From: Phycisphaerae bacterium
Lineage (GTDB): Bacteria > Planctomycetota > Phycisphaerae > UBA1845
Assembly: GCA_020056715.1 (NCBI GenBank)
Contig: JAGVHG010000057.1
Location: forward strand, 1,256 to 65,255
Reading direction: 5' to 3'
Length of the DNA stretch: 64,000 nucleotides
In this document: piece after piece, positions 3,935-63,908 of the stretch
How the letters are laid out: each line of letters starts with the position of its first letter
Numbering within the stretch: the stretch's first letter is position 1
Made by a program: the position numbers and the translations under genes
The notes under the pieces: generated by a model
Database searches by the model: none
What the model saw: the letters and a program-made list of their open reading frames with translations, nothing else
What the model was told of the DNA's origin: nothing

Positions 3935-3953
3935 CGCTTCTTATCCCTGCCCC

Positions 3954-4060: not shown

Positions 4061-4192
4061 CAAAGCACTGTTATGCGGTCTGCGCAATGTAGGCGTTCCC
4101 CCGATTGAATGTACAATTGCGCCCGAACGATCGGCAACTTGTCGATCCATCGTTATACGGACGGACCGAGATATGGCCACCAGGGATTGCGA

Positions 4193-4918
4193 ATGAATAT
4201 CGTATTGACCAATGATGACGGTTATGACGCCGCGGGGCTTCATGCCGCCTTTGACGCCCTTTCCGGTTTTGGGACGGTACACGTGGTCGCGCCGAAGGGG
4301 GAGCGGTCGGCTTGCAGCCACACGATTACGCTTCGTCGACCGATAACCGTCGAACGCCGGACGCACGCTGGATATGGTATCAGCTACGCGGTCGATGGAA
4401 CGCCGGCGGATTGCGTTCGATTGGCCGTGTCCGCACTCGTCGATCGGCCGATCGGGTTGATTGTCTCCGGGATCAACCACGGCGCGAACGCCGGGGTGGA
4501 TACTTTTTACTCCGGAACGGTTGCGGGTGCGCGCGAGGGGGCAATTTTGGGACTTCCCGCGATTGCCGTATCCCAGGCCATGCGCGGAACGGAGCCTAAT
4601 TGGCCTTTGGCGACGGAGATCACGGCCTTGCTCATCAAGGAGCTATTGGCCGAGCCGCTTCCCGGCCCGGGTTTTTGGAGCATCAACTTGCCATCGCCGA
4701 TTCCGCCCGACGCACGCAAGCACGTTCAGCGCGTGCCCCTCGCGGTCCATCCCATGCCGATGACCTTCGATCGTTCGGAGAGCGAGGACGGTAAGCTCAT
4801 GGAGTTTGACTACGGTGCGTCGTATTGGCTGCGCGACGTGACCGGCCCCAGCGACTACAGCGTCATTCGCGACGGCGGCATAGCGGTCACGGCCATCCCG
4901 CTCTACGGACGGTTTTGA
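4193..4918 (+). CDS. surE: 5'/3'-nucleotidase SurE
   Basis: MNIVLTNDDGYDAAGL N-terminus typical of SurE. ATG at 4193 is in frame within tracked ORF 4109..4918. Confidence 0.9.
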   Translation: MNIVLTNDDGYDAAGLHAAFDALSGFGTVHVVAPKGERSACSHTITLRRPITVERRTHAGYGISYAVDGTPADCVRLAVSALVDRPIGLIVSGINHGANAGVDTFYSGTVAGAREGAILGLPAIAVSQAMRGTEPNWPLATEITALLIKELLAEPLPGPGFWSINLPSPIPPDARKHVQRVPLAVHPMPMTFDRSESEDGKLMEFDYGASYWLRDVTGPSDYSVIRDGGIAVTAIPLYGRF

Positions 4919-5029
4919 CGCTGTTGGGAGTTCGCAAGAAGTGCCGAGCTGCGGATTTCGCCCGCGCGCGGAGCCTCCGTGCAAGCCGAAACATGCGGCG
5001 CGTTGCGACGAACACACGGGTGGGTCCGG

Positions 5030-5647
5030 CTAACGATCTTCGAGTTGGAGGAATTCGATCAAATATTGATCGTAGGCCTGCTGGCCGGCGGGGCTGCTGA
5101 GGACCAGCCCAAGCTCATTGATGACCTTGGTGCCCATGCCGATCCACTCTTTCCAGCAGCCGGCGCAGACGTTGGCCAAGATTTTCTCACCCAGCGGGCC
5201 TTTGAAGGGTCGCTTGGCGAGCGGCCCATCCGGGCGTCCGCAACGGGAGCATTGGAAACCGGGCGCGGCAGCGCCGCCCGTATCGGCATCGGGGCCGGGC
5301 CGATCGACCGCCTTGAAAGTCGGGACGGGTGCGCCCCAGTCGCGTAGGACATTGGCCATTGCATCGCGGGGCATGCGCTCGCCTTGTTCATCGGCGACGG
5401 TGACACCCTTTGTCATCACCTCGATCGCTTTCGCTCGTTTCCCGGCGCGGTCGAAGGCGTCGCCCAGAACCTGATACCCTTTGGACATCGAGGGATTCAA
5501 GTCGAGCGCTCGGGTGAGCGACCCGACGGCGTCGTCGAATCGCCCGGCGTCGAGGTACGCTTTGCCGAGGCTGAAGTGGCCCAACTCGTTATCGGGGTCG
5601 GCCTCAGCCATCTGCTTGAACTGTTGGATGCGTTGGTCTAAATCCAT
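5030..5647 (-). CDS. TPR-repeat protein fused to a YggX-like Fe(II)-trafficking / oxidative-damage-protection domain
   Basis: N-terminal TPR-like repeats (GKAYLDAGRFDDAVGSLTRALDLNP...). The C-terminal CSRCGR...PLGEKILANVCAGCWKEWIGMGTKVINE...QYLIEFL resembles YggX. Start placed at ATG 5647 and is uncertain. Confidence 0.7.
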   Translation of the reverse strand: MDLDQRIQQFKQMAEADPDNELGHFSLGKAYLDAGRFDDAVGSLTRALDLNPSMSKGYQVLGDAFDRAGKRAKAIEVMTKGVTVADEQGERMPRDAMANVLRDWGAPVPTFKAVDRPGPDADTGGAAAPGFQCSRCGRPDGPLAKRPFKGPLGEKILANVCAGCWKEWIGMGTKVINELGLVLSSPAGQQAYDQYLIEFLQLEDR

Positions 5648-5750
5648 TCGTCGTCTTTCGAGACCTCGCGTTCGCCCCACTGCTCAAGAGCAGTGGCACC
5701 AAGTTTCCCGTTTTCTCTTCCTGGCTTCGTGCCTTCGTGCCTTCGTCTTA

Positions 5751-5834
5751 TGCGGATGAGAGGAGTCGAACCTCCAAGGGGTTACCCCCACTGGTACCTG
5801 AAACCAGCGCGTCTGCCAATTCCGCCACATCCGC
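5751..5834 (-). tRNA. tRNA-Leu (anticodon CAG), long variable arm
   Basis: Reverse complement folds as GCGGATG acceptor, anticodon stem CTGGT/ACCAG with loop TTCAGGT, variable arm TGGGGGTAACCCCTT and T-arm GGAGGTTCGACTCCTCT. 84 nt, no encoded CCA. Confidence 0.9.
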
Positions 5835-5970
5835 CGCAGCGTGCGCGTCCTCGCCGGCCTTCGGGCTTGGGCGACACGAACGGGACCAGCATAAGGCCGA
5901 CGCATCGCGTGTCAATCGGCCCGTGCGACCCGGAGATGAGCGCGAGGCCAAACGTGAGTATACTCCCAGT

Positions 5971-7017
5971 ATGAATGAGTCGCGGAAGATACGATTGACC
6001 GATTACGCAAGCTGCGCGGGCTGAGCCGGCAAGCTCCCTATGGGAGCCTTGGCGCAGGTCGTGCGCAACTTGCCTAGAGCCGCTGATCCAAACCTGCTCG
6101 TGGGGGCGGACCACTTCGACGATGCGGGCGTCTACAAGCTCGATGCGTCGACGGCTCTCGTATTGACCGTGGACTTCTTCCCGCCATTGGTGGACGACCC
6201 GTACGAGTACGGGCGCATCGCCGCCGCCAACAGCCTCTCCGACATCTACGCCATGGGCGGGCGACCGCTCGCTGTACTCAATATCGTGGGATTCCCCGAC
6301 AAGGAGTTACCCATCGAGATTCTCGGCGAAATCCTTCGCGGCGGGGCGGAGCGCGTCGCGGCCGCCGGAGCGGTGGTCGCCGGCGGGCACAGCGTGCGGG
6401 ACGCGGAAATCAAGTTCGGGCTGTCCGTTACCGGCCTGGTCCATCCCGATCGAATCCTCACCAACGGCGGGGCCAAGGTCGGCGACGTGCTCGTGCTCAC
6501 CAAACCGATCGGAAGCGGCGTGCTCACGACGGCGGCCAAGAAAGGGCTTATCGCCGAATCGGACCTCGCGGAGGCGATCGACGTGATGACCGACCTGAAC
6601 CGCGGCGCGTGCGATGCGGCTTTGGAAGTCGGCGTTCACGCCGCGACCGACATCACCGGGTTCGGCCTGATCGGCCACGCCCACGAAATGGCCGAGGCCA
6701 GCGGCGTCACCATCGAGATCGACGCCAAAAGTGTGCCTCTGATGGCCCGCACGCTTGAATTCGCCCGCGGCGGCGTAGTCACTCGTGCAGCCGCGTCGAA
6801 TCTCGAACACCTCGGCGACCGCTTTACTGCAAAAGGCGTCGATGAAACACTCACAAAGGTTCTCGCTGACGCGCAAACGTCGGGTGGATTGCTGCTCGCA
6901 GTCGCACGTGACCGCGCCGATGCGCTCGTGGCTGCCCTCAGAAAGCGCCACACCCGCGCCGCGGCGGTCATTGCGCGTGTCACTCCGAAGTCGGGGAACA
7001 CCATCGTGCTATCGTAG
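5971..7017 (+). CDS. selD: Selenide, water dikinase (selenophosphate synthetase) SelD with in-frame UGA (probable selenocysteine) at 6022-6024
   Basis: ORF 5737..6024 (MNESRKIRLTDYASCAG-TGA) and ORF 6040..7017 share one frame. The junction LTDYASCAG-U-AGKL matches the SelD N-terminal glycine-rich loop with Cys/Sec and Lys. The rest of the protein is clearly SelD-like. Confidence 0.85.
6030..6051 (+). promoter_or_regulatory. Candidate bacterial SECIS hairpin
   Basis: caagctccc-tat-gggagccttg: 9 base pairs with one bulged C, starting 5 nt after the TGA. Confidence 0.5.
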
Positions 7018-7025
7018 CAGGTGAA

Positions 7026-7087
7026 CAGAGCCGCGGGCGCAAGCCAGCGGACATGCCGTGTCACCAGGCTTGCGCCTGGTGCTCAGA
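7026..7087. repeat. REP-like intergenic element (family with hairpin caccaggc..gcctggtg)
   Basis: cagagccgcgggc...gcggaca...tgtcaccaggcttgcgcctggtgctcaga. A second copy lies at 16079-16160. Both sit between convergent genes. Confidence 0.8.
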
Positions 7088-8030
7088 TCGATTGGTCATT
7101 CCTAACCGCTAGCCGGCTCAAACGTCTTTGCGTGTTGAGCATGATGACCGCCCCGACCATGGCCGTCAGACCGCTCAGCCATTGGCCGATGGTCAGTCTC
7201 TCACTGAAAAGGAAATATGAACACGTACTGGTGATGAACGGCTGCAAAAGGATGACGCCGACGGAGAGTGCGACGCCGATGCGGGCGATGGCCGCGTAGT
7301 ATGTCACGTGGGTGATGGCGATGCCCGCGAACGCCGACGCAACCAACATCCCAAACTGTCCCCAGGTGAGCGACCAGGCGACCGCTCCGTGGTCCCGGCC
7401 TCTCACCAGCATGACGCTTACGACGCCGATCGCGGTATAGAGGCTGATCGTCGCGAAGGCGACGATGGGGTTGATGTCATGCACGTAGCGTCGGACGGCC
7501 AACGAGTATCCGCCGTAGAGTATCCCGGCGGTGATCGCCAGCCCCACTCCCAATGCCGTGGCGCCGCGCGGTAGCGTCTCGCCAAGAAAACACAATCCTA
7601 GTAATCCACCGAACACAATCACCACGCCGAAACAATACGTCGGTGAACGCAAGACCGGCCGCTCCGCGGGGAACAGCAGGTACGCACCGAGGGCGACGAA
7701 GACGATCTGCAAGCGCAGCAGAAAGGTGATCAGCCCGGGATTGATGTAGTAGGGCGCCCACGCGAAGCAGATTTGAGCCGCAATGTTGAATAGGCTCGGA
7801 ACCAGTGCCGCTCGCCATAACCCGGCAGGCAGCGTGCGACGCCACACGCCCCATACCAACACCGGCGCCCAAAAAAGTGCCGAGATTCCGTAGCGCCACC
7901 CATTGGCCGTCCAGGCGTCGATGTACGCGGTGAGGTATTTGAGGAAAAGCGGAACGCTGGACCATCCCAGCAGCGTCAGCAGGATGAGCACGACGCCGCC
8001 CGCGTCGCTCTTGGTCGACTTCACACTCAT
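7083..8030 (-). CDS. EamA/DMT-family membrane transporter
   Basis: About 10 predicted TM helices in a duplicated EamA-like pattern. 315 aa. Confidence 0.75.
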   Translation of the reverse strand: MSVKSTKSDAGGVVLILLTLLGWSSVPLFLKYLTAYIDAWTANGWRYGISALFWAPVLVWGVWRRTLPAGLWRAALVPSLFNIAAQICFAWAPYYINPGLITFLLRLQIVFVALGAYLLFPAERPVLRSPTYCFGVVIVFGGLLGLCFLGETLPRGATALGVGLAITAGILYGGYSLAVRRYVHDINPIVAFATISLYTAIGVVSVMLVRGRDHGAVAWSLTWGQFGMLVASAFAGIAITHVTYYAAIARIGVALSVGVILLQPFITSTCSYFLFSERLTIGQWLSGLTAMVGAVIMLNTQRRLSRLAVRNDQSI

Positions 8031-37795: not shown

Positions 37796-37827
37796 AATTA
37801 CGAATTACAAATGACGAATTACAAAAG
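37796..37827. repeat. Direct heptamer array AATTACG/AATTACA/AATGACG overlapping the res stop codon
   Basis: aattacgaattacaaatgacgaattacaaaag. No inverted partner seen nearby. Confidence 0.7.
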
Positions 37828-40800
37828 GGGGGAAACGCGGGCGAGGGCGGCGGGGACGTCGGTCACGGTGCTGACGACATCGTAGGACCAGTGGCCGAAG
37901 CGGGCGTCGGCGTTGACGGCGTCGACCCAGCGCTGGGCGGCCTGGGTCTTTATATCGCGCAGGGGATCGTATCCCTTGGTTTCGAGAATCAGGTATCGTT
38001 CACCGTCGCAGCGTAGGCGAATGATGAAGTCGGGCACGTAGTCATGGGTCTGGCCGTTGTGGAAATAGGGAATGGCAAAGCCGAGTCCCGCATTCTTGAC
38101 GAAAGCGACGACTACTTCGTGCGTGTCGATGTGGTAGGCCGCGGACTGCTCCCACTTTTTCGTATCCGCAACCACATAGTTCACGTGGCTCCGGATAACC
38201 GGGCGCACATCGCGACTGGTTCTGAAGTCCACCTCCGCTGTCGATCCCGGGCCGCGATTGGCCTCGTAACGGGGAATCTCCGGCGCCTCGCCGGCCGTCG
38301 AGTCGGGCTTGATCCCCTCGACCAGACGCTCAACGATCCAGCCGTAATACGGCGAGAGGAACGCATCGACCAATTGAGTCGGCGGTAAGGGTTGGACCTT
38401 CTCGCGAAGATATCGCTCAATAATCCGAACAATCTGCTGGAATAGCACGTGGGCGGGAGCTTCACATCCGGGCTGGCTCACGTAATCGCGCGTCAAGTCC
38501 CGCGCCATCTCAAAGCACAGCGCCTGGAATCGCTGTCCCTTCCGATACGGGCTTAAATCCACATGCTGCAACTTTCCCGGCCCAACCAACGACGGCCGCC
38601 CCTGATTATTCGGCAGCATCCCCTTCATTTGGACTTCGGGGGGAATGTTCATGGGGTCCAGTTGAAGCGGTGCCAGCGCCGACCACTCCACCGTCACACG
38701 ATTTCGAATCGCCTGTTGATACCCCTCGACGCGCGGGAACCGAATTTCCAAGTGTGCTCGTTCCGGAAGCGAATGGACGTGATGCCTCTTTTCCTTCGGC
38801 GGCTTCGGTCCGCCTTGCTGCGCTTTGAACGGAATGACTTCGAACGGGACGCCGAAGACGGTCGCGACCTCTTCGGGAAACTTGTCGCCCGGTCCAATAT
38901 CGGGGTAGTTTTTCCGCCGCAGCCCACGTCCCACAACTTGTTCGCAAAGAAGCTGCGACATGAATGGCCGCAAACCGATGATGTGCGTCACGGTGTTGCA
39001 GTCCCACCCCTCGGTGAGCATCCCCACGCTGACGATGCAACGAATATCGCGCCCTGGCGGATGCAACGGGCGCTCCAGTTTTTTCGCCAACTCCTCGAAT
39101 CCCTCGGGGTAGATGGGCATACCCTGCCGGTTGGTCGGCCACTGCGTCTTACCAACAGTGTCCAAGGTCAGTCGCATCCATCGCGTCTCGTCCGCTTTCG
39201 CCTCTCCGCTGTCGGTTTCGCGCACGACTTTCGAGTCCACGCGAATGGTGTTGATCTGACCGTCGCGATTGACGAACCCCATAATCCGCGCCGACGGAAT
39301 CCCCATCGGGAGCTTGTCCTCGCCGAGCCATTCGAAAACGATCTTCGCAATCCGCGTGTTCTTACAAACGGTGATGAACACCGGCGGGCGCGGATCATCC
39401 TTGGGTTCCTCCCATTCGCAACGTAACTGCTCCCACAGCCCGCCGAGCATGGCGATGGGCGTGTGCGCCCATTTCAAAATGGCCTCCGGTTTCGGGCTGG
39501 CCTTCTTGCCGCCTCGTTCAGCGGGTGTGAGCTTCGGTAGAATCCACCGCCAGATGTTCAGATACCCCGGAATCTCCGACCCTGTCGTATCCCGCACCGC
39601 AAGCTGCGGAATCTTTACCAACCCCGACTCAATGGCGTCCGTCAGCCCGAAGTCGCTGACCACCCACGGAAACGTGCGATTGGTTTCCTGTCCGACACGC
39701 CCCAAGAAATAAGGAGTCGCGGAGAGGTCCACGCAAAAGTTGATCCCTCGCAACTTCTGTATACGGTCCAGCCCGTCGATCCATACCGTGGCCTCTTTGA
39801 AGAACTCATCGGCCTCGTCCTCGCCGATCGTCTCGTCTTCGTCCTCATCCGGTTCGGGGCGGCGGATACGGTACGCGTGATGCGCCTCATCGTTCATAAT
39901 GAGGATGTTCTGTTTACCGCGCACCCCCGAACCCAACACCTTGTTCACCAGCGACGTGTCGCTCTCCACATACTTGTATGATTCGACCTTGACCTTCCGA
40001 AGACACCCGTCACGGTCACGGTCCTCTTCGAGCACAGTGAGCAACCCCGCCGCCACCTGTCGATCAAACTCGTCCTGCGTCAGATACCGCGTCCCCCGCG
40101 CCGTCGTCGTCTTGGGACCGATCTTGATTTTTTCCGTGATCCGCACCGGTCGACCGGTTTTCGCAACCTTTGCCGATGTTCCGCCCACCTGCACCGACTG
40201 CGGTTCGAATACGTGCTAGTTGGTCACGAGCACGCGGCCGCGAGTGAGCAAGGGCATCAAGTGGGATGGAACAAGGTCGCGCGTTCGGTACAGGCTTGCC
40301 TCGCCGCGTTCGGGCTTGAGTTCGTCAAGGCGATTGCGGATGGTCACGTTGGGGCAGACGACCAGCACCACGTCTGAGAACCGCGCATCGCCCCGCGAGT
40401 TGATCTTGTTGAGAATGGTCCAGGCCGCCAGCATTCCCATGACGGTCGTCTTACCCGCGCCGGTGGCCATTTTGCAGGCGTAGCGCCGGAACGCCGCGAT
40501 GCCCTCGGTTTTCCGCTCGTCGCTAGGCTCGTCAGGCGGAACGTCGATGCCTTGCAGGAAATCCGCCCGCGCTTCGGTCAGGAAGACGATGACCTCAGCG
40601 GCTTCGAGCTGGGCGAAGAAGAGGCGCTTATCACGGCCGTCGCGTTGCCAATACTCCAGCAATTCGAGGGTTGTCCGGGTGACGCCCGGCCAGCCTTGAG
40701 CGCGCCAGTCTTTGACACGCTGGCGGATAAGGTTAACCAATTGGAGCTCGACCCAAACTCCGCGCGCGGGGTGATTCGGGTCGGTGAGTTGTTCTCGCGG

Positions 40801-40935
40801 GTCACGATAGAAATACCCTGCGGCGCGCCGGCCCGGTAGCCGCTTCGGCTCTTCACCTTCCTCGATGTACCAGTGTTCGGCGGGTTCCGCGTAGGGTGAA
40901 TTGAGGATCGGCTCGGCGACTTCGAAGTTGCTCAC
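37819..40935 (-). pseudogene. res: Type III restriction enzyme Res subunit (SF2 helicase + PD-(D/E)xK nuclease) interrupted by one in-frame TAG at 40216-40218
   Basis: ORFs 40216..40935 (Walker A KMATGAGKTTV) and 37819..40194 (NDEAHHAY, helicase motifs, VPDFII...LILETKG nuclease) share one frame. The junction reads VLVTN-TAG-HVFEPQS. Confidence 0.85.
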
Positions 40936-41780
40936 GGGGTGCCGAGCCTTCTGAGCTTTTTGACTCTGGCTGGAGGTAGGTAGTTCTGCCCGGTAACCAC
41001 CCTTTGGCCAGTTTTTTGCTCCAACTCCAATCGGGCCTTTTTGGCGATGTTTCCGCCGCTCTTGGCGGCGAACTTGTTTTCATCCATGCCGGTGGCGTCG
41101 GTTTTTTCGGCGATCTGTCGCGTGGATAGCTCGGCGAGGGCGGTGAAGATGAGTTCGGCCTCGCTCATGTGGTCACGAAGGTTCTGGCTCTTGAGACCCT
41201 TGAGTGCCTTGTGATCTTGAACCGTGACCTCGGACCATTCCTGATGGATGATGTTGGTGAGAACGGCGTACTCCTCGCCTTTCTTGATTTCGTGGCCGGC
41301 CCAGTAGTCGGTCAGCTTGTTACGGGTCTCCTGCCCGGTCATGCGTTGCTGAATCCACTTTTCGCTGCGGCCGTGCTTCTGCCAGGTCTCGCGGGCACGG
41401 TCGAGGGAACGGGCAGGGTCGGCCATTTCCTGCATCCGTTCGTAAACGACCTTGGCCAGCCAGAGCTTGATGGGCTCGGCTTTGGGGCTGGGAACGCTCT
41501 GGACGAGGCGGAGCAGGGTTTCGGGGCTGGCTACGTCGGTTAGGCGCTGCTTCCCGTCTTCCGCCGCCATTTTCAACTGGTAACAACTTGTTACCACTTC
41601 ACTTCCCTCTTTAGTCAAGCGGCCTTTTAAGACTTTCCAGTACTTTCTGGACGCTTGGTGGTCCGGCTGTTGGGTCAGCACCTGGATGATGTCCACGACG
41701 GAGAATAACCAGGTTTCGCTCTTCTCGTCGTAAACACGACGGATCTCCCGCTCTTCGAACACGACGGGGAGCATTTTCAT
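40932..41780 (-). CDS. Bro-N domain / DinD-like protein inserted between mod and res
   Basis: N-terminal VVFEEREIRRVYDEKSETWLFSVVDIIQVL (Bro-N-like). The C-terminal half resembles E. coli DinD (recalled from memory). Its stop overlaps the res ATG. Confidence 0.65.
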   Translation of the reverse strand: MKMLPVVFEEREIRRVYDEKSETWLFSVVDIIQVLTQQPDHQASRKYWKVLKGRLTKEGSEVVTSCYQLKMAAEDGKQRLTDVASPETLLRLVQSVPSPKAEPIKLWLAKVVYERMQEMADPARSLDRARETWQKHGRSEKWIQQRMTGQETRNKLTDYWAGHEIKKGEEYAVLTNIIHQEWSEVTVQDHKALKGLKSQNLRDHMSEAELIFTALAELSTRQIAEKTDATGMDENKFAAKSGGNIAKKARLELEQKTGQRVVTGQNYLPPARVKKLRRLGTP

Positions 41781-41807
41781 AGAAGTTCCTTGAACTTGAG
41801 CAACACC

Positions 41808-44800
41808 CTACTCCATGTCACGAAGACTCTTCACTACCAATAACTCATTGCCGCGGTCGTCGATGACCTTCACGGCGACCTCGCCGTGCTTACCGGCTTC
41901 GAAGGGTGCGCTCACGGTACCTGCGAGGTGCTCCCAGACCGACGGGTCGAACTCGGCCTTGAGGGAGCGTTTAAGGTCATCCCAGGCGGCCGTGCGGGGA
42001 AAAAACGCTTGGCAGACGTGGAAGCACAGGCCGTTGTAGTCGGTGTCGAGGAACCACGCGGGTACGTCGTTTCCGGGGCGCGGGTCCGTCTGCATGGTGA
42101 TGGGATCGAACACGTCGAGGCCCAGAAGCTCGACTTGGTACAACGAGTTGTCAGTTGTCAGTTTTCGGTTGTCAGTTGCTGAGTGCTGACCGCTGACAAC
42201 TGATAACTTCACGTCCGGCAGGCCGCACACACTGAAGCTTTGGCTGCTGCGCATGTTCTTGAGCAGGTCGCCCATGGTGAGGTCCATGGTGGCCTGCACG
42301 TAGGTGGCCGGAACGCCGACGGCGCGCTCGCAGTCGTCGATCAATTTGCGGGCGTTAGACTGGATCGCAAAACCGATGACGAACAAGTGCGCGTACTGCT
42401 TGGCGTGCGCTTCGCGGGCGGCCTCATAGACCGTGCGTTCGCTGATGGCGCCGTTTTCGGGTCCGAAGACGATGGCGACCGGGGAAGTTGTCAGTTTTCG
42501 GTTGTCAGTTGTCAGGGACGAAGGGACGTCAGGAGGCCGTTGAGGATCCGACCCACTTCCGACGCCTGTGCCAGAAGCTCCGCTGATGCCGTCGACGCAA
42601 GAAACGTCAGGTTTGTCGCGATCTCGATCTGGGTCTCCAGTTCCGACAGACTCCCCCTCGCGTGTCGCACGAACTGGCGAAACTCCCCCGGAGATTGCCG
42701 GCCGTGGCCCTCGGCGATGTTGCTGGGGATCGACACGGCCGCCCGCCGCATCTGGCTCACCAACCCGTACCGTTCCTCCGCCGGAAACGTCTGTGTCGCC
42801 CGATAAATTCCCGTCACGAGGTCCATCGCCTTCTGCCACGCTACCAAGTCCCGATACCCTTGCCCCATTTTCTTCTCCTGACAACTGACAACTGATAACT
42901 GATTCAACAATGGCCTCGGCGGATAGCGAAAGCGTCTTGGCCGGGGGGCGAACATTCTTGAGGGTTACGCTCTTTCCGCCGCCGAGTTGGAGGACGGGGC
43001 TGCGGCGGAGGACTTCCAACATGCGATCGACGAAGCGGGACGAGGACGAGTTGTCAGTTATCAGTTGTCGGTTGGACGAGTTGTCAGTTATCAGTTTTCG
43101 GTTATCAGTTACTGACAACTGAGAACTGACAACTTCGTCGTCTTCCCAATCGACGGGCGTCGGGATGGTCGCTTCGACGCAGAAGGGGCCGGTGACGCGG
43201 GTGATCTTGGGATCCTTTTCGGGGCGGTCGACGAGGACTTCTTCCTTGGGCGGCTCGTTGTTGGCGATGGATTCGAGGGTGACGTGAGGCACGATGCCGC
43301 CGACTTCCTCGCCCTTTTTGTTTTGCTTGCGCTGGTAAACGAACCCGCCGGCCGGGCCGCGGGATTCGTCTTGCAACTCGTAGTAATCGAAGGTGGCGGT
43401 GAGCAGCCGCTGCCGGGCCAAAGCCAACGGCACGCGGCTGGTGTCGATGGTGATCCACCGTCGGCCCCATTGCTCGGCCACGTACGCCGTCGTCCCGCTG
43501 CCGCACGTCGGATCGAGCACAAGGTCGCCAGGGTCGGTTGTCATCTGTAGGCAACGCTCGATTATGGGTAGCGCGGTCTGTACGACATACATCTTCGCGC
43601 CTCCAAATTGGTTTTGGCCGACGGTGTCGGTCCATATAGTTGTCAGCGGAAAAACCGGGAAGTCGTTGAAAAATCGAAGATAGGCTAATCCGTTCTTTGA
43701 GGCACGAACACGCCCACTTTTGACCAACGTCTTCATGCCGTCTTCGCTCGTGCTCCAAAACCGCTTTCCTGGGCGGTAGGCTTTGCCTTCAACCTCGACT
43801 GGAAAATCGCCGGGTGGCTTTGATGAAGTGATGTCGCCCAAACCGAACATCTTTGCGCCATCCGGAATCGAAACTCTTCCGCTGAGTTCATCTGGTGTCA
43901 GTCTTCGCTCTGTCCCGTCAGCGTGTAAGACGTGAGTGATCCCTGTGCCTCCGATGCCGCCGGGAATTTTGTCCGCAAAAAGCATCTTTGTTTTGACCCG
44001 CTCGTGATCCTTGGAATACCAAAGCACGAAATCATTTACGATTGGCAGATAGTCCCCAGACGCGGTGCTCGTCTTTTGAGCGATAATCACACGCTGGAAA
44101 TTCTCCGCCCCGAACACCTCCTCCAGCAACTCGCGGACGTGATGAAGATTCGCATCGCTGATTTGTACAAACATGCTCCCGCTCGGGGCGAGTAGTTCCC
44201 GTGCAACCAGTAATCGGTCGCGCATGTAAGTAAGGTAGGAGTGCAAGCCGAGTTCCCAGGTATTGCGGTAGGCTTGGACCATTTCCGGCTCGCGGGTCAT
44301 ATCTTCGTCGTCGTTGTGCTCGACGCCGCGTTTGCGGACGAAGGGCTGGAAGTTGCTGCCGAACTTCACGCCGTAGGGCGGGTCCATGTAGATGCACTGG
44401 ACCTGCCCGCCGAGGCCTTCGTAGTTGAGCAGGGAGTTCATCACCACCAGCGAGTCGCCGAGGATGCAGCGGTTCACCCAGCCGTTTTTGTGTTCGTAGG
44501 CGCGGAGGACCTGGTCGTGGATGGGGTGCTCGCGGTCGCCGAAGAGGTCGAAGAGGGAGAGCTGCTTGTCGCGCTTGTGGCCTTTGAGGGTTTCGAGGAT
44601 GGCGGCGGTGGAGAGGCGCTCGTGGATGAAGAGGGGGAGGGTGGGTACGTCGAAGCTGAGGCGCTCGGCCTTGCCCGCCCAGTTGAGGAAGGGCTTGGCG
44701 AGGCGCTTGAGCTGCTCAGCCGCGTTCGCGGCCTCGCTTAAGTTGTCAGTTGTCAGTGGCCAGTTGTCAGTGAGTAGGCGCTCGATCGCTGCAGCGAGCT

Positions 44801-45143
44801 CGTCGTCGCCATTTTGCTTGGCCCGGACAGCGAGGTTGTGAAGCTCTTCGGCGAGCAAAGCGAGCCGCCCGCTGACAACTGATAACTGAGAACTGACAAC
44901 TCGTATCTGCTGTTCGCCCAACTCACGAGCGGGATTCTGGCCGTCCCAATTCAGCTCGGGCGATAGCGATGAGTCGTAGCGGTAGGTCTTTGGGGGCTTT
45001 TTCTTGCGGAACTGGGCCTGGGTGCCGACGTCGGGGCGGAGGAGGGCAGCGGCGGTGGGGTGAGTGTAGCTCTCGGCCGACCGTGCGGCTGTATTTGGCT
45101 TCGCAACTTTGCTGCGCTTCGTCGCTGAGACTCGCTTGGCCAT
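41808..45143 (-). CDS. mod: Type III-like DNA methyltransferase (Mod, beta-class N6A/N4C), carrying several in-frame repeat-element insertions
   Basis: IYMDPPYGVKFGSNF (motif IV) lies before DPTCGSGTTAYVAEQWGRRWITID (motif I). Conserved C-terminal domain. Start placed at ATG 45143 (MAKRVSATKR). Low-complexity inserts read QLSVVS / TDNRKLTTDN. Confidence 0.85.
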   Translation of the reverse strand: MAKRVSATKRSKVAKPNTAARSAESYTHPTAAALLRPDVGTQAQFRKKKPPKTYRYDSSLSPELNWDGQNPARELGEQQIRVVSSQLSVVSGRLALLAEELHNLAVRAKQNGDDELAAAIERLLTDNWPLTTDNLSEAANAAEQLKRLAKPFLNWAGKAERLSFDVPTLPLFIHERLSTAAILETLKGHKRDKQLSLFDLFGDREHPIHDQVLRAYEHKNGWVNRCILGDSLVVMNSLLNYEGLGGQVQCIYMDPPYGVKFGSNFQPFVRKRGVEHNDDEDMTREPEMVQAYRNTWELGLHSYLTYMRDRLLVARELLAPSGSMFVQISDANLHHVRELLEEVFGAENFQRVIIAQKTSTASGDYLPIVNDFVLWYSKDHERVKTKMLFADKIPGGIGGTGITHVLHADGTERRLTPDELSGRVSIPDGAKMFGLGDITSSKPPGDFPVEVEGKAYRPGKRFWSTSEDGMKTLVKSGRVRASKNGLAYLRFFNDFPVFPLTTIWTDTVGQNQFGGAKMYVVQTALPIIERCLQMTTDPGDLVLDPTCGSGTTAYVAEQWGRRWITIDTSRVPLALARQRLLTATFDYYELQDESRGPAGGFVYQRKQNKKGEEVGGIVPHVTLESIANNEPPKEEVLVDRPEKDPKITRVTGPFCVEATIPTPVDWEDDEVVSSQLSVTDNRKLITDNSSNRQLITDNSSSSRFVDRMLEVLRRSPVLQLGGGKSVTLKNVRPPAKTLSLSAEAIVESVISCQLSGEENGARVSGLGSVAEGDGPRDGNLSGDTDVSGGGTVRVGEPDAAGGRVDPQQHRRGPRPAISGGVSPVRATREGESVGTGDPDRDRDKPDVSCVDGISGASGTGVGSGSDPQRPPDVPSSLTTDNRKLTTSPVAIVFGPENGAISERTVYEAAREAHAKQYAHLFVIGFAIQSNARKLIDDCERAVGVPATYVQATMDLTMGDLLKNMRSSQSFSVCGLPDVKLSVVSGQHSATDNRKLTTDNSLYQVELLGLDVFDPITMQTDPRPGNDVPAWFLDTDYNGLCFHVCQAFFPRTAAWDDLKRSLKAEFDPSVWEHLAGTVSAPFEAGKHGEVAVKVIDDRGNELLVVKSLRDME
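42147..42208. repeat. Heptamer-array palindrome (GTTGTCA arm / CTGACAAC arm) in frame inside mod
   Basis: gttgtcagttgtcagttttcggttgtcagttgc ... ctgacaactgataac. Translated in mod as KLSVVSGQHSATDNRKLTTDNS. Confidence 0.85.
42486..42902 (-). mobile_element. IVS-like cassette: inverted heptamer arms flanking a four-helix-bundle gene, nested in frame in mod
   Basis: Arms gttgtcagttttcggttgtcagttgtcag (42487-42515) and ctgacaactgacaactgataactg (42878-42901) are inverted repeats. The cargo has its own SD (caggagaagaaaATG). The mod frame stays open across all ~139 codons. Confidence 0.75.
42512..42868 (-). CDS. Four-helix-bundle protein (23S rRNA intervening-sequence protein / Avd-like family)
   Basis: 118 aa: MGQGYRDLVAWQKAMDLVTGIYRATQTFPAEERYGLVSQMRRAAVSIPSNIAEGHGRQS..EFRQFVRHARGSLSELETQ. 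Matches the remembered signature of this family. Reading frame differs from mod. Confidence 0.85.
   Translation of the reverse strand: MGQGYRDLVAWQKAMDLVTGIYRATQTFPAEERYGLVSQMRRAAVSIPSNIAEGHGRQSPGEFRQFVRHARGSLSELETQIEIATNLTFLASTASAELLAQASEVGRILNGLLTSLRP
43049..43133. repeat. Heptamer-array palindrome in frame inside mod
   Basis: gttgtcagttatcagttgtcggttg..gttgtcagttatcagttttcggttatcagtt / actgacaactgagaactgacaac. Translated as VVSSQLSVTDNRKLITDNSSNRQLITDNSS. Confidence 0.85.
44742..44901. repeat. Inverted heptamer arms bracketing ~100 nt of the mod N-terminal coiled-coil region
   Basis: gttgtcagttgtcagtggccagttgtcagtg (44742-44771) and ctgacaactgataactgagaactgacaac (44872-44901). Peptide reads VVSSQLSVVSG...LLTDNWPLTTDN. 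Confidence 0.8.
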
Positions 45144-45248
45144 TCGACTCCTCGCTGCGTGCTGTCGCCGACGCTGTCTTCCAAGGGCGGATTGGAGTCG
45201 GAGTATAGGCGAAGCGACGGGGGGCGGGCAACGGGAGGAAGGCAGGAA

Positions 45249-45470
45249 GCGACGGATGGGCGAAGGGTTGAAGGGCGGAAGAAACGTCAAAAAGACAAAA
45301 CGTCAAAAAGTCGAAATGAGGCACGAAGGCATCCGCCGCAGGCGGACCCTGCTCCGGCACGAAGGGTTGAAGGGATGAAGGGCGGAAGAAACGTCAAAAA
45401 GTCAAAACGTCAAAAAGTCGAAATGAGGCACGGAGCGACGGAGCGACGGATGGGCGAAAGGTTGAAGGGG
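45249..45470. repeat. Tandem ~100-bp direct repeat (about 2.3 copies) upstream of mod
   Basis: The unit gcgacggatgggcgaagggttgaagggcggaagaaacgtcaaaaag(a/t)caaaacgtcaaaaagtcgaaatgaggcacg occurs at about 45249 and 45361, with a partial third copy at about 45435. It contains an internal acgtcaaaaag duplication. Confidence 0.8.
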
Positions 45471-62306: not shown

Positions 62307-63245
62307 CTACAGTCGATCCGCGTGCCCGGCCTCCGTCTGGCGCTGCCGCTCGGTGGCGTCACGCAGTGCCCGCTTTTCTTCCTCCGTCAGGCTGTGGATG
62401 CCACCTTCGTAAACCTTCTTGAGAATCCGATCAACGGTCTGGGCATCGTCGCGTCGCTGGTCCACTCTAGCGCCGAAGTCGGAAGGCGCACGTTCCCGCG
62501 TCCTAGTCCGCCAACTTGATGCCCGCCATCCGACCCTGTCCCACCAAGTCTCTCCGCGGTATGCCCACCAGGCGCCGAAGAGCATCCCCGCAATATGGCA
62601 GGCGTCGCCCCCGGCGTTGGGTCCCTGATCCAGAAGATTCCAAATGTACCACGCACCGAACAGCAAGGCCGCCGTGCGAATTTTGATGGGGAAGAGAAAA
62701 TAAATGAGCACCTCCGCATGGGGATAGCGGACCGCGCACGCTCCGAGCAATCCCAACACGCAACCCGACGCTCCGGCGGCCACTCCCTGCATGGGCAACC
62801 AGCCGATCAGCGTCAGGATCATGTAGAAGACCATCCCCAGCGTGCCGGCGATCAGGTAGATGAAGAAGAACCGCTTCGACCCCCAGTCTCGTTCCAGAGC
62901 CCGGCCGAGGAAGTGCAGCCCGAGCATGTTCATTAGGATGTGGCCAAACGACCAGTGCAGGTATTGCGCCGTGATGATCCGCCAGACTTGCCCCCGCATC
63001 ACTAGGCTCGTCTTCATGGCGGAGAATTGAAAGACCGGACTGGTGATGATTTCTTCGCCGCGAAGCTCCGGGTACCGCGCCGCATTACGGTCGATGGTCA
63101 TCTGACTGAGAATGAAGACGGCCACGTTGATCACTATCAACGTGGTGACGACGCTGCCGCCGAGCAGCGCAACCCGCCGGGTCGGCGGCCAGACCCGGCC
63201 ACCACCCTGCGCGCCCCTTGCGTAATCTCGGTCTCGCCAACTCAT
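62307..63245 (-). CDS. Rhomboid-family intramembrane serine protease
   Basis: HWSFGHILMNM and GASGCVLGLLGA motifs. Confidence 0.85.
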   Translation of the reverse strand: MSWRDRDYARGAQGGGRVWPPTRRVALLGGSVVTTLIVINVAVFILSQMTIDRNAARYPELRGEEIITSPVFQFSAMKTSLVMRGQVWRIITAQYLHWSFGHILMNMLGLHFLGRALERDWGSKRFFFIYLIAGTLGMVFYMILTLIGWLPMQGVAAGASGCVLGLLGACAVRYPHAEVLIYFLFPIKIRTAALLFGAWYIWNLLDQGPNAGGDACHIAGMLFGAWWAYRGETWWDRVGWRASSWRTRTRERAPSDFGARVDQRRDDAQTVDRILKKVYEGGIHSLTEEEKRALRDATERQRQTEAGHADRL

Positions 63246-63254
63246 GCGGCACGG

Positions 63255-63361
63255 ATTGTCGATTGGAGATTGTCGATTGTCGATTGAGAGTTCGGCGATA
63301 GGTGATCAAATACCGGCCTAATCGATTCGCCGCAGGCGGACAAATCGACAATCGACAATTG
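63255..63361. repeat. Palindromic heptamer-array element (ATTGTCG arm / CGACAAT arm)
   Basis: attgtcgattggagattgtcgattgtcgattgagag (63255-63290) and caaatcgacaatcgacaattg (63341-63361). Lies between the NUDIX and rhomboid genes. Confidence 0.85.
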
Positions 63362-63395: not shown

Positions 63396-63908
63396 TCACA
63401 GCCTCGCAAAATAGGTTCCCAACACCGCAATCGTTTTCCCGTCGCGCAATTCGCCGTTGACCAACCAGCGGCGGACGAGGTCCAATTCAACGACCTCCGC
63501 GACGATCCGTTCTCCGTGCTCTAACCGCTGGCCGACCGATGTCAGGTCCGTCGCCACGAACGCGAACATCCGCTCGGTCAGCACACCCGGCGAGGTGTAG
63601 AACTCCGTGAGCGGAGTCATCGTCCCCGCCCGATAGCCGGTTTCTTCCTCCAACTCCCGTCGGGCCGTCTCGATCGGGGACTCGTTCGGCTCCGCCGTCC
63701 CCGCGGGCAGCTCCCATAGCTCCTGCTCTATTGTGTAACGGAAGTTGCGGATCATCACGATGCGGTGTGCGTCGATGATGGGCAGAATCACCACCGCCCC
63801 GGGATGAACGACCACCTCGCGGGTGATCGATCGCCCGTCGGCCCCGGCGAACACCCGTCGTTCGACGCTAAATCGAGATGTCGAGAGAAGATGCTCTTGC
63901 ATCCACAT
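63396..63908 (-). CDS. NUDIX hydrolase (ADP-ribose pyrophosphatase-like)
   Basis: Nudix box GTAEPNESPIETARRELEEETGY. Confidence 0.85.
   Translation of the reverse strand: MWMQEHLLSTSRFSVERRVFAGADGRSITREVVVHPGAVVILPIIDAHRIVMIRNFRYTIEQELWELPAGTAEPNESPIETARRELEEETGYRAGTMTPLTEFYTSPGVLTERMFAFVATDLTSVGQRLEHGERIVAEVVELDLVRRWLVNGELRDGKTIAVLGTYFARL

What the first reader, a model, noticed from the sequence alone, without database searches (positions are those of the whole stretch)
42486..42902. Four-helix-bundle (23S-rRNA-IVS / Avd-like) gene nested inside the Type III mod ORF, bracketed by inverted heptamer arrays, while mod stays open
A complete 118-aa four-helix-bundle gene (42512-42868) with its own SD (caGGAGaagaaaATG) sits on the same strand as mod but in a different frame. 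On the coding strand it is bracketed by CAGTTATCAGTTGTCAGTTGTCAG (5') and CTGACAACTGACAACCGAAAACTGACAAC (3'). These arms are inverted repeats that could form a stem of about 20 bp in the mRNA. The mod frame reads through the whole ~139-codon cassette without a stop, as low-complexity SVISCQLSGEENGARVSG...PSSLTTDNRKLTT. The native sequence resumes on either side (...LSAEAIVE | cassette | SPVAIVFGPENG...). This family was originally described as an ORF inside 23S rRNA intervening sequences, whose flanking stems are excised by RNase III. The DGR accessory protein Avd has the same fold. Here the same module type sits in a protein-coding defence gene. Inference: this is a compact selfish cassette whose stem could be processed to release its own mini-mRNA and split the mod transcript. 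Alternatively the cassette is tolerated as a disordered loop at a domain boundary. I know of no description of such in-ORF, frame-preserving insertions of this family.
Basis: partly seen in the sequence, partly recalled or inferred. Interest (0 to 1): 0.85.

Follow-up and report, generated by a model that had tools for sequence, protein, structure and literature searches.

The report
Hairpin-bracketed gene nested in methylase gene
A small complete gene, of a family otherwise known from the spacers that interrupt ribosomal RNA, sits inside a DNA-methylase gene between two repeat-built hairpin arms; the methylase is still read straight through it, and the arrangement recurs in at least ten related methylase genes, so it is a rare gene-carrying insert that its host tolerates by translating it.

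Summary
A 118-aa PF05635/TIGR02436 four-helix-bundle (4HB) gene (42512-42868, minus strand) lies in frame +1 inside a Type III-like mod ORF (41808-45143). It is bracketed by inverted arrays of the heptamer GTTGTCA/TGACAAC. The mod frame stays open.

New findings:
- mod carries three more hairpins of the same heptamer, and all four keep the frame.
- Every 3' arm unit that starts in the mod frame has lost its TGA (5 of 5). Every out-of-frame unit keeps it (14 of 14).
- Ten distinct mod variants carry a 4HB cassette at the same codon position. Their arms differ between lineages but stay complementary.
- About 97% of the listed orthologues lack the cassette.
- The 4HB frame is under purifying selection. 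The mod frame is only kept stop-free.
- Against its closest relative, identity is 97% through the cassette and falls to 78% exactly after the last arm unit.
- Free-standing relatives share the architecture and sit just downstream of co-directional housekeeping genes.

Best reading: a 23S-rRNA-IVS-type hairpin-plus-ORF module, inherited as a discrete unit, lodged in a permissive loop and translated through as a disordered linker. RNase III processing, 4HB function and the mobility mechanism remain untested. I rate it a new variant of a known kind.

The parts
41808..45143 (-). Host gene: Type III-like DNA methyltransferase (mod), 1111 aa from the ATG at 45143. It stays open through four hairpin inserts.
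   Evidence: PF01555 E 1e-29. PADLOC MTase_III PDLC03632 E 8e-164. The core matches the solved Type III Mods 6k0w and 4zcf. An identical 1111-aa protein, P0001, is on record.
42486..42902 (-). Site C cassette: 5' arm, SD, 4HB gene and 3' arm. In the mod frame it is read as residues ~747-887.
   Evidence: Absent from most orthologues. Identity to L188 is 97% inside the cassette and 78% immediately outside the 3' arm.
42877..42902 (-). 5' arm: TCAGTTA TCAGTTG TCAGTTG TCAGG, an array of the heptamer GTTGTCA. It has no stop in any frame.
   Evidence: (pair I2).
42875..42878 (-). Shine-Dalgarno-like GGAG of the 4HB gene. It is buried in the predicted terminal stem.
   Evidence: A purine-rich SD-like run precedes the start codon in all seven lineages aligned.
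42512..42868 (-). Four-helix-bundle gene (118 aa plus a TGA that is the first unit of the 3' arm), in frame +1 relative to mod.
   Evidence: PF05635 E 2.3e-39. TIGR02436 and NF008911. Purifying selection: pairwise differences per codon position are 0.31/0.24/0.51.
42486..42516 (-). 3' arm: TGACAAC TGACAAC CGAAAAC TGACAAC. The one unit that starts in the mod frame is CGA, not TGA.
44741..44901 (-). Site A hairpin: two 30-nt arms of the same heptamer around 101 nt. It is translated as part of a long helical hairpin (residues ~81-134).
   Evidence: I1; same codon position in L001 with a different heptamer; arm-like peptides at this position in P0017, P0059 and P0083; helices 71-111 and 115-162, pLDDT 75-89.
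43049..43134 (-). Site B hairpin with no gene inside (5' arm, then 3' arm with a 30-nt duplication), in a disordered linker.
   Evidence: I3, I5. RNA fold z -5.7. Same site in L005 with its own heptamer.
42146..42208 (-). Site D hairpin with no gene inside, in a loop between two beta strands.
   Evidence: I12, I15. RNA fold z -2.8. In the distant homologue L054 the equivalent linker holds a full 4HB cassette. P0022 shows a heptamer-hairpin-like peptide there.
40932..41780 (-). Variable middle gene of the mod-X-res operon (Bro-N domain; PADLOC candidate PDC-S13).
   Evidence: Other loci hold different genes at this position.
37819..40935 (-). res: BPTD_3080-family restriction endonuclease, interrupted by an in-frame TAG at 40216-40218 (LVTN*H).
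   Evidence: NF046055 matches both fragments. Translation and sequence.

Best explanation
This is an intervening-sequence-type module. It is a promoter-less four-helix-bundle (S23p/Avd-like) gene held in the loop of a long hairpin whose arms are inverted arrays of a 7-nt repeat. It sits in a permissive surface loop of a Type III-like Mod methyltransferase.

Shown:
- The module is a discrete hereditary unit with a history different from the mod sequence next to it.
- It recurs at the same codon position in at least ten mod variants. The arm sequences differ between lineages, but the two arms of each copy stay complementary.
- The 4HB reading frame is under amino-acid-level purifying selection.
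- The overlapping mod frame is kept merely free of stops, both in the gene and in the arms. Mod is therefore translated straight through. The model of the resulting ~140-residue Gly/Arg/Asp-rich stretch has very low confidence and no secondary structure, which fits a disordered linker between two beta strands.
- Gene-less hairpins of the same repeat occupy three other linkers of the same protein.

Inferred:
- The 4HB gene depends on the mod transcript. It is translated from its own SD, which the stem hides until a ribosome translating mod, or a nuclease, opens it.
- The module spreads or is exchanged as a unit. This would be either site-specific insertion into hairpin-prone or permissive sites, or recombination between mod alleles with a breakpoint at the arm.
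- Selection then removes every copy that breaks the host frame.

In short, it behaves as a selfish hitch-hiker on host transcripts, like its free-standing relatives and like the 23S rRNA IVS. It is not an integral part of the restriction system.
For: Family and anatomy:
- PF05635 and TIGR02436 matches.
- The arms pair in both MFE and centroid folds, and the stem buries the GGAG.
- No promoter-like site lies before the 4HB gene inside mod.

Selection for read-through:
- The mod frame is open across the cassette in all lineages examined.
- Synonymous-codon resampling gives P(open) of 0.05-0.19 per lineage.
- Only 3 of 81 free-standing relatives are open in that frame, and 0 of 81 in the other.
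- In the four 3' arms of this gene, 5 of 5 units starting in the mod frame are CGA/TGG variants. 14 of 14 out-of-frame units keep TGA.
- The intergenic hairpin at 3953-4064 keeps a TAA in every unit.

Selection on 4HB:
- Pairwise differences per codon position are 0.31/0.24/0.51.
- Amino-acid identity is 62% in the 4HB frame against 36% in the mod frame.

Recurrence and covariation:
- Cassettes sit at the same site in L001, L004, L005, L132, L133, L139, L187, L188 and L189.
- Arm units are GTTGTCA, GTTTCGA, GTTGTCG, GTGGTCA and GTTGGCG, each matched by its own 3' arm.
- A 5' arm pairs more weakly with the 3' arm of a lineage that uses a different heptamer than with its own.

Discrete unit:
- Window against L188 is 97% identical from the 5' arm to the last 3' arm unit, apart from one divergent patch. 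Identity is 78% from the next base on (Fisher p 3e-7).
- Pairwise 4HB and ModC identities are uncorrelated (r -0.13).
- Cassette-bearing Mods do not cluster in the Mod comparison.

Loop location.

Free-standing relatives:
- 44 of 78 have complementary heptamer flanks, against 0 of 78 after shuffling.
- 63 of 76 follow a co-directional gene (p 5e-9); for those 63 the median distance from that gene's stop to the 4HB start is 81 nt.
- Their neighbours are housekeeping genes, with no R-M enrichment.

Precedent: the Coxiella 23S IVS carries an S23p ORF preceded by tandem heptamers and is excised by RNase III (PMC4990558).
Against: - No mobility machinery (transposase, integrase, reverse transcriptase) and no target-site duplication were found. 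No presence/absence polymorphism between near-identical genomes was seen, so movement is inferred only from patchiness and mosaicism.
- The breakpoint at the 3' arm could be an ordinary recombination junction between mod alleles.
- Six of the seven nested 4HBs compared fall in one small clade, and the window's copy lies just outside it. That also fits a single old insertion followed by many precise losses.
- Several cassette-bearing systems are decaying: res nonsense codon here, an in-frame stop in the L132 mod, and frameshifts in the L133 mod. Read-through selection may therefore be past rather than present in this genome.
- Expression of either protein is not shown.
- The AlphaFold model is poor overall (mean pLDDT 59). 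Low confidence in the insert is expected for any unaligned segment.
Confidence: 0.6

Rival explanations
1. RNA-level intervening sequence. As in 23S rRNA, RNase III cuts the heptamer stem in most transcripts, releasing a 4HB mini-mRNA and splitting mod mRNA. The cassette would then mainly down-regulate Mod or yield separate N- and C-terminal products.
For: - A long, nearly perfect terminal stem is predicted in both the MFE and the centroid fold.
- The same module type is excised from 23S rRNA by RNase III in Coxiella (PMC4990558).
- The arms co-vary so that pairing is kept across lineages.
Against: - Selection keeps the mod frame stop-free through ~140 codons in every lineage. It has also edited exactly the in-frame TGA units of all four 3' arms. 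That is pointless if no ribosome reads through.
- No start codon follows the cassette that could restart a C-terminal product.
- ModC stays conserved at ~64-77% among six of the seven lineages compared (50% for L132).
- Partial cleavage is not excluded.
Confidence: 0.15
2. Domesticated accessory. The 4HB protein is a working partner or regulator of this R-M family. Nesting it in mod behind a stem that hides its SD couples its synthesis to Mod translation. The hairpins would be regulatory RNA or DNA structures.
For: - Ten mod variants keep an intact 4HB under purifying selection.
- Nested 4HBs are mostly each other's closest relatives: 62% mean identity against 51% to free-standing copies, and 6 of 7 fall in one 8-leaf clade.
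- The three closest database relatives of this 4HB are all nested in mod.
- The SD is sequestered in the stem.
- A more distant Mod homologue independently has a cassette at site D.
Against: - Only 4 of the best 120 orthologues carry it, and each carrier's nearest Mod relatives lack it.
- Free-standing relatives sit next to housekeeping genes with no R-M enrichment.
- The 4HB has no match in PADLOC.
- The 4HB stays intact where mod or res is broken. This points to selection on the cassette itself.
Confidence: 0.15
3. Phase-variation device. Slippage in the 7-nt arrays shifts the mod frame and switches Mod off. A -7 nt slip in the 5' arm would fuse the Mod N-part in frame to the 4HB domain.
For: - A repeat unit that is not a multiple of 3, inside a Type III mod, is the classic setting for phase variation (established knowledge).
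- The 4HB frame is open for 32 codons upstream of its ATG, so a fusion is possible.
- Arm length differs between the close relatives L188 and L189.
- L133 and L176 carry a 1-nt frameshift right after the 3' arm.
Against: - The arrays are short and imperfect, with 2-3 identical units.
- The one length difference seen is 24 nt and in frame.
- Cassette and flanking sequences are identical in L004, L124 and L179, and contigs from at least eight samples encode the identical L001-type Mod.
- The same arrays flank free-standing 4HB genes and intergenic hairpins, where frame is irrelevant.
Confidence: 0.06
4. Assembly or annotation artefact: a chimeric contig or collapsed repeat places a free-standing 4HB gene inside mod.
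For: Repeat arms do break assemblies. The contigs of L187 and L188 end in or near the 5' arm.
Against: - The same junctions, on both sides, occur in independent assemblies from many samples and pipelines: JGI, ENA, Logan and NCBI.
- In each case the host frame is kept.
Confidence: 0.01

Closest known systems
23S rRNA intervening sequences carrying an S23p ORF (Leptospira, Coxiella, Xanthomonas, Brucella)
   Same: - Same protein family (PF05635).
- The ORF lies in the loop of a long stem made by flanking inverted repeats, in sense orientation within a host transcript, with no promoter of its own.
- Tandem heptamers lie next to the ORF start in Coxiella (PMC4990558).
- Fixed insertion sites in a conserved host gene, with a patchy distribution across lineages.
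- Gene-less versions occur at equivalent sites (established knowledge).
   Different: - The host here is a protein-coding gene, not rRNA.
- The insert is tolerated by translation through it rather than by excision. The element is therefore under an extra constraint: no stops in the host frame, with edited arm units.
- RNase III processing is untested here.
Rickettsia palindromic elements and other MITEs inserted in frame in ORFs (Ogata et al. 2000; review PMC10969869)
   Same: Palindromic selfish DNA sits inside protein-coding genes, is translated as an extra peptide at structurally permissive positions, and the host frame is preserved. The three gene-less hairpins at sites A, B and D are of this kind.
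   Different: - RPEs are ~150 bp and do not carry a conserved gene family. Here the hairpin carries a complete conserved gene in another frame, creating a ~120-codon gene overlap.
- The arms are tandem heptamer arrays whose unit differs between copies.
Avd, the accessory protein of diversity-generating retroelements
   Same: Homologous four-helix-bundle fold. The window protein gives weak matches to PF22296 (bAvd) and NF033474.
   Different: - Both scores fall below the family cut-offs (37 against 40 bits; 30 against 80 bits).
- I saw no reverse transcriptase or template/variable repeat pair in the mod-res operon, and I did not scan the rest of the window for them.
Inteins and homing introns in conserved genes
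   Same: A self-contained genetic element at a fixed position of a conserved host gene, with patchy phylogenetic distribution. The element's history is decoupled from the flanks, with a sharp identity break at its boundary.
   Different: There is no splicing domain, no ribozyme and no homing endonuclease. The insert appears to remain in both the mRNA and the protein.
REP/BIME hairpin repeats mobilised by RAYT (Y1) transposases
   Same: Dispersed short hairpin repeats lie between co-directional genes. At least three separate heptamer hairpin loci occur in this 64-kb window.
   Different: - I did not scan the window for a RAYT. One Y1_Tnp gene lies between mod and res in L186, which is probably coincidental.
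- The arms are tandem heptamers with a copy-specific sequence, not a conserved REP consensus.

Membership tests
PF05635 / TIGR02436 four-helix-bundle (23S rRNA IVS protein, S23p) | Full-length match to the family profile above the curated cut-off | tested here: met
   PF05635: 134.3 bits against a cut-off of 33.8, profile positions 1-106 of 106. TIGR02436: 127.6 bits against 24. NF008911: 137.7 bits against 137.
PF05635 / TIGR02436 four-helix-bundle (23S rRNA IVS protein, S23p) | Four-helix-bundle fold, homopentameric toroid | not tested
   I did not model the structure of the 118-aa protein. The fold is inferred from family membership (Lin et al. 2006, as cited in PMC4990558).
23S rRNA intervening sequence (IVS) | Located in a 23S rRNA helix (9, 25 or 45) | tested here: not met
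   The host is a protein-coding mod gene.
23S rRNA intervening sequence (IVS) | Flanking inverted repeats form a long stem with the ORF in the loop, in sense with the host transcript | tested here: met
   Arms are 26 nt and 92% complementary. They pair in the MFE and centroid folds. The ORF is on the same strand as mod.
23S rRNA intervening sequence (IVS) | Excision from the transcript by RNase III | not testable with these tools
   This needs RNA end-mapping or an in-vitro cleavage assay.
DGR accessory protein Avd | Profile match above cut-off | tested here: not met
   PF22296: 37.4 bits against a cut-off of 40. NF033474: 30.2 bits against 80.
DGR accessory protein Avd | Adjacent reverse transcriptase and TR/VR repeat pair | not tested
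   I saw none while examining the mod-res operon, but I ran no systematic scan for a reverse transcriptase or a TR/VR pair.
In-frame palindromic insert (RPE/MITE-like) | Palindromic element inside an ORF, host frame preserved, absent from orthologues | tested here: met
   Four hairpins sit in mod and all keep the frame open. Orthologues lack them.
In-frame palindromic insert (RPE/MITE-like) | Multiple near-identical copies dispersed in one genome; target-site duplication | tested here: inconclusive
   Four copies of one heptamer type lie within mod. Two other hairpins in the window have different units. No TSD is evident at the junctions. Only 64 kb of the genome is available.
Type III restriction-modification Mod subunit | N6/N4 methyltransferase core similar to Type III Mods, with res downstream in the same operon | tested here: met
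   PADLOC MTase_III E 8e-164. Solved Mods 6k0w and 4zcf match. A BPTD_3080-family endonuclease lies downstream, though it is broken by a TAG codon here.
Intein / homing intron | Splicing domain or ribozyme, and a homing endonuclease | tested here: not met
   The only Pfam matches for the nested ORF are PF05635 and bAvd. Rfam gives no intron family in 41700-45400.

The most novel reading that the evidence does not exclude
The heptamer-hairpin plus 4HB module may be a previously unrecognised class of mobile element, the same class that produced the 23S rRNA IVS. On this reading it needs no transposase and lives inside host transcripts. It would home to specific hairpin-prone sites of conserved genes, here four linkers of one Mod family. 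The pentameric 4HB protein would recognise or maintain its own 7-nt repeat arms. That would explain why all hairpins within one gene share a heptamer type while orthologous sites in other genes carry a different, still self-complementary one. The mod cassettes would then be the first case in which such an element has adapted to a protein-coding host by keeping the overlapping host frame open.
Probability: 0.25. Interest if true: 0.9.

Novelty: new variant of a known kind. Interest (0 to 1): 0.72.

Why it matters
- The origin, mobility and function of the 23S rRNA intervening sequences and their S23p ORF have been open since the early 1990s (PMC4990558). This locus shows the same module type living in a protein-coding gene. 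There selection leaves legible marks: edited stop codons in the arms, an overlapping frame kept open, co-varying arms, and a sharp identity break at the element boundary.
- These marks give tractable tests of whether the stem acts as RNA or DNA, whether the element moves, and what the 4HB protein binds.
- The survey suggests a general rule that I did not find stated in the literature. In the 78 genome loci sampled (mostly Acidobacteriota, with Planctomycetota, Desulfobaccales, Verrucomicrobiota and others), 4HB genes of this subfamily are typically flanked by inverted heptamer arrays with copy-specific units. They sit just downstream of co-directional host genes.
- In practice, gene callers miss the nested gene. 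It was not called in L001, L004 or L005, and the window's own 4HB is absent from the protein database. Mod proteins are therefore annotated with a spurious ~140-residue low-complexity segment.
- It is also a clean natural example of a long gene overlap created by insertion rather than by overprinting.

Tried and rejected
- Searching the 5.8-billion-protein database with a profile of the read-through peptides, to find every host protein that reads through a 4HB gene, failed. Low-complexity words swamped the candidate list and not even the known cases came back.
- An exact look-up of the window's Mod in the contig index found nothing. The nearest named relatives are Verrucomicrobiota, Planctomycetota and Acidobacteriota MAGs.
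- Testing whether 4HB genes are generally linked to R-M or defence genes gave no enrichment. Neighbours of 76 and 74 free-standing copies are housekeeping genes. The 4HB has no PADLOC match.
- Rfam returned only sub-threshold miRNA-like hairpin hits.
- A test of strict co-divergence of cassette and host found pairwise 4HB and ModC identities uncorrelated.
- A test of a single clade of cassette-bearing Mods found that they do not cluster.
- I considered translational bypassing (gene-60-like hopping) or RNA religation after excision. I set both aside because either would remove the need for the stop-free host frame that is observed.
- The whole-cassette RNA fold z-score is only -1.95. The case for the stem therefore rests on covariation and arm complementarity, not on folding energy.
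Full report
**1. What is at the coordinates**

On the minus strand, an ORF from 45143 (ATG) to 41808 encodes a 1111-aa DNA methyltransferase.
- It matches PF01555 and PADLOC MTase_III PDLC03632 at E 8e-164.
- Its catalytic core matches the solved Type III Mods 6k0w and 4zcf.

Downstream in the same orientation lie two more genes.
- A Bro-N/PDC-S13 gene occupies 40932-41780.
- A BPTD_3080-family restriction endonuclease (NF046055) occupies 37819-40935.
- This is a mod-X-res operon whose middle gene differs from locus to locus.

Inside mod, 42512-42868 encodes a 118-aa protein.
- It matches PF05635 end to end (E 2.3e-39) and TIGR02436 (E 2.2e-37).
- It is on the mod strand, in frame +1 relative to mod.
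- It is preceded by GGAG at 42878-42875, and its TGA stop is the first unit of the downstream repeat arm.
- The two arms (42877-42902 and 42491-42516) are 26 nt, 92% complementary and 360 nt apart.
- They pair with each other in both the minimum-free-energy and the centroid RNA fold. The resulting stem buries the GGAG.
- The mod frame has no stop across the ~140 codons. The third frame has five.

**2. More of the same in the same gene**

The heptamer pattern occurs 22 times in the 64-kb window against 0.1 expected, and every occurrence is inside mod. The hits resolve into four hairpins, listed in coding order:
- Site A, 44741-44901: two 30-nt arms around 101 nt.
- Site B, 43049-43134: no gene inside.
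- Site C: the 4HB cassette.
- Site D, 42146-42208: no gene inside.

All four keep the mod frame, and the way they do so is informative.
- A perfect (TGACAAC)n array puts a TGA in all three frames within 21 nt.
- In the four 3' arms, each of the 5 units that starts in the mod frame is a variant: CGAAAAC three times, CGACAAC once, TGGCCAC once.
- All 14 units that start in the other two frames keep TGA.
- Two other heptamer hairpins in the window lie between genes and use different units: [CG]AGTTAC at 3953-4064 and GATTGTC at 63256-63361.
- The first of these keeps a TAA in every unit of its 3' arm, so all frames are blocked.

The arms inside mod have therefore been filtered or edited for translatability.

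**3. The cassette is not unique to this genome**

Most Mod orthologues are 880-970 aa and lack the insert.
- Among the best 120 database hits, only four are long at this position. One of the four is the window's own protein.
- I retrieved DNA for those hits.
- I ran one metagenome scan for the junction signature, the 4HB C-terminal LNGL motif followed by the Mod FGPExG motif in another frame.
- I also looked up the contexts of the three closest 4HB proteins.

Together these give ten distinct sequences with a 4HB cassette at exactly this position: the window, L001, L004, L005, L132, L133, L139, L187, L188 and L189.
- In each, the 4HB ORF is intact and in frame +1.
- A purine-rich SD-like run follows the last 5' arm unit.
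- The 4HB stop lies in the 3' arm.
- The mod frame is open across the cassette.

The arm unit differs between lineages, and in each case the 3' arm is its complement:
- GTTGTCA in the window, L133 and L187-L189.
- GTTGTCG in L004.
- GTTGGCG in L139.
- GTTTCGA in L001 and L005.
- GTGGTCA in L132.

A 5' arm pairs more weakly with the 3' arm of a lineage that uses a different heptamer than with its own. This is compensatory covariation replicated over several units per arm.

Two further observations extend the pattern.
- L001 also has a hairpin at site A, and L005 has one at site B. Each uses its own gene's heptamer type.
- A more distant Mod homologue, L054 (29-39% identity in the C-terminal part), has a full 4HB cassette at site D and arm-derived peptide at site C.

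Many other orthologues show arm-like or GC-rich palindrome-derived peptides in the same four linkers. These linkers are therefore recurrent landing or retention sites for hairpin DNA.

**4. Which frame is selected**

- Across seven nested cassettes, pairwise differences per 4HB codon position are 0.31, 0.24 and 0.51.
- Amino-acid identity is 62% in the 4HB frame and 36% in the mod frame.
- The 4HB protein is thus under purifying selection, and the read-through peptide is not conserved as a sequence.

The read-through frame is nevertheless kept open.
- Resampling synonymous codons gives a stop-free mod frame in only 5-19% of trials per lineage.
- Among 81 free-standing relatives, only 3 are open in that frame and none in the other. 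Two of those three are themselves read through by a longer ORF.

Together with the arm edits, this shows that ribosomes translating mod pass through the cassette. The exception is genomes where the system has recently decayed.

**5. Where the inserts lie in the protein**

An AlphaFold model built with a 73-sequence alignment is poor overall (mean pLDDT 59) but locally informative.
- Residues 751-884, the read-through segment, have pLDDT 25-30 and no secondary structure. They lie between strands 742-747 and 886-893.
- Site B lies in a disordered stretch (612-699).
- Site D is a loop between strands 977-983 and 1001-1013.
- Site A is modelled as part of two long antiparallel helices (71-111 and 115-162, pLDDT 75-89).

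A tandem 7-nt repeat translates into a 7-residue repeat. An inverted DNA repeat may therefore encode a helical hairpin that projects from the host. This last point is inference only.

**6. Is the cassette a separate hereditary unit?**

- Cassette-bearing Mods do not cluster. Each has cassette-less nearest neighbours at 73-76% identity (59% for the outlier L132) but is only 52-71% identical to the other four full-length carriers.
- Pairwise ModC and 4HB identities are uncorrelated (r = -0.13). The most divergent Mod, L132 (50% to all others), carries a 4HB as close to the rest as any.
- Nested 4HBs are nonetheless mostly each other's closest relatives. Mean identity is 62% against 51% to free-standing copies. 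Six of seven fall in an 8-leaf clade of an 88-leaf tree.
- The three closest database relatives of the window's 4HB (80-90% identity) are all nested in mod.

The sharpest evidence comes from the closest relative.
- Window against L188 is 97% identical from the last 5' arm units to the last 3' arm unit, apart from a 55-nt divergent patch.
- Identity falls to 78% from the very next base (367/30 matches/mismatches against 180/52, Fisher p 3e-7).
- On the other side, L189 stays 87-98% identical for about 470 nt into ModN, apart from one indel at site B.

The cassette boundary thus coincides with a recombination or mobility boundary. I cannot tell site-specific re-insertion ('homing', possibly with co-conversion of one flank) from allelic recombination that happened to break at the arm. 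I also cannot exclude one old insertion followed by many precise losses.

**7. The wider family**

A scan of one genome per species returned 80 loci with relatives of the nested 4HBs at 47-66% identity. They are mostly Acidobacteriota, with Planctomycetota, Desulfobaccales, Verrucomicrobiota, Bacteroidota and others.
- In 44 of 78, the 90 nt before the gene and the ~100 nt around its stop contain complementary arms with a score of at least 14. None of 78 shuffled controls reach that score; their maximum is 12.
- The arms are period-7 arrays with copy-specific units, and 28 of 44 contain the core AGT.
- 63 of 76 copies follow a co-directional ORF (p = 5e-9). For those 63, that ORF ends a median of 81 nt before the 4HB start.
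- 52 of 70 copies are followed by a co-directional ORF. The ORF calling for these counts was crude.
- The neighbours are ATP synthase subunits, release factors, YchF and the like, with no enrichment of restriction or defence genes.

The module therefore looks like a promoter-less passenger of host transcripts. This is also the situation of the S23p-bearing IVS in 23S rRNA. For the Coxiella IVS, tandem heptamers next to the ORF start and RNase III excision have been described (PMC4990558).

In-frame palindromic inserts in ORFs are known from Rickettsia (review PMC10969869). I found no paper describing a PF05635 gene nested in a protein-coding gene, nor the general heptamer-arm architecture.

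**8. Mechanism, with steps marked**

Shown:
- The module's anatomy.
- Selection on the 4HB frame.
- Selection against stops in the host frame.
- Arm covariation.
- Recurrence at fixed linkers.
- Decoupled history at the 3' boundary.

Inferred:
- Transcription from the mod promoter. No promoter-like site lies before the 4HB gene.
- 4HB translation from an SD that is exposed when the stem is melted by a ribosome translating mod, or is cut.
- Spread as a unit.

Unknown:
- What the 4HB protein does.
- Whether the stem matters as RNA or as DNA.
- How all hairpins within one gene come to share a heptamer type while orthologous sites elsewhere carry another. Possible causes are gene conversion, recent local spread, or co-evolution with a factor that reads the repeat. 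The last would be the most novel.

**9. Caveats for this particular locus**

- res carries a TAG in place of the conserved Trp in LVTN[W]H (40216-40218).
- Two other cassette-bearing mods are damaged: L132 has an in-frame TGA, and L133/L176 have frameshifts, one immediately after the 3' arm.
- L001 and L005 have intact mod and res.
- The cassette therefore occurs in apparently functional systems, but the system in this window may be on its way out.

**10. Verdict**

RNase III splitting is untested and cannot be the sole fate of the transcript.
- It is a new variant of a known kind, with a realistic chance of pointing to a broader, undescribed class of hairpin-plus-4HB elements.

Noticed in passing
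window 40216-40218 (minus strand): The res gene (BPTD_3080-family endonuclease) has an in-frame TAG where the conserved motif LVTN[W]H would have Trp. This splits it into 239-aa and 791-aa ORFs. It is either a pseudogene or a sequencing error.
   Followed up: partly
window 3953-4064: An intergenic heptamer hairpin with a different unit ([CG]AGTTAC / GTAACT[CG]) and a 40-nt loop, with no gene inside. It lies between a divergent FHA-domain-like gene and a surE-like gene. Its 3' arm keeps TAA in every unit.
   Followed up: partly
window 63256-63361: A third heptamer hairpin with unit GATTGTC / GACAATC and a ~45-nt loop. It lies between two co-directional minus-strand ORFs (62307-63245 and 63396-63908).
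   Followed up: partly
window 45225-45469: Just upstream of the mod start lie two copies of a ~77-nt direct repeat (91% identical, 107 nt apart), with an internal 8-nt periodicity (GAAGGG-rich on the plus strand). A promoter-like site for mod lies at 45231-45202.
   Followed up: no
L190 (JGI Ga0673031_0023586), 1-7895: Three PF05635 genes lie within 8 kb of a reverse-transcriptase (RVT_1) gene, Cas1 and Cas2. One of them is 71% identical to the window's 4HB.
   Followed up: no
L186 3454-3906: The cassette-less orthologous operon of P0003 carries a Y1 (IS200/IS605- or RAYT-type) transposase gene and a nucleotidyltransferase between mod and res. The middle slot of this operon family is a hot spot for unrelated cargo: Bro-N, AAA_15/21, RhuM, DUF6978+DUF1828/1829, and Peptidase_M78+DUF4411.
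   Followed up: no
Mod orthologues P0005, P0012, P0022, P0024, P0026 and others, at linkers A-D: Many orthologues carry short Pro/Ser/Gly/Glu-rich inserts of the type PSPxxGEGxG in the same four linkers. They look like translated GC-rich REP-like palindromes. P0017 at site D encodes a perfect non-heptamer inverted repeat (APTFRSA...ADLKVGA).
   Followed up: partly
L133 / L176 just 3' of the cassette; L132 mod N-terminal part: Two independent contigs share a 1-nt deletion immediately after the last 3' arm unit, which puts ModC out of frame. The L132 mod has an in-frame TGA (IWNDT*VGG). Both 4HB genes are intact.
   Followed up: partly
window mod coordinates 2521-2575 = window 42569-42623: Inside an otherwise 97%-identical cassette (window against L188), a 55-nt patch encoding the start of helix 4 is only 64% identical. 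This may be a small conversion tract from another 4HB copy.
   Followed up: no
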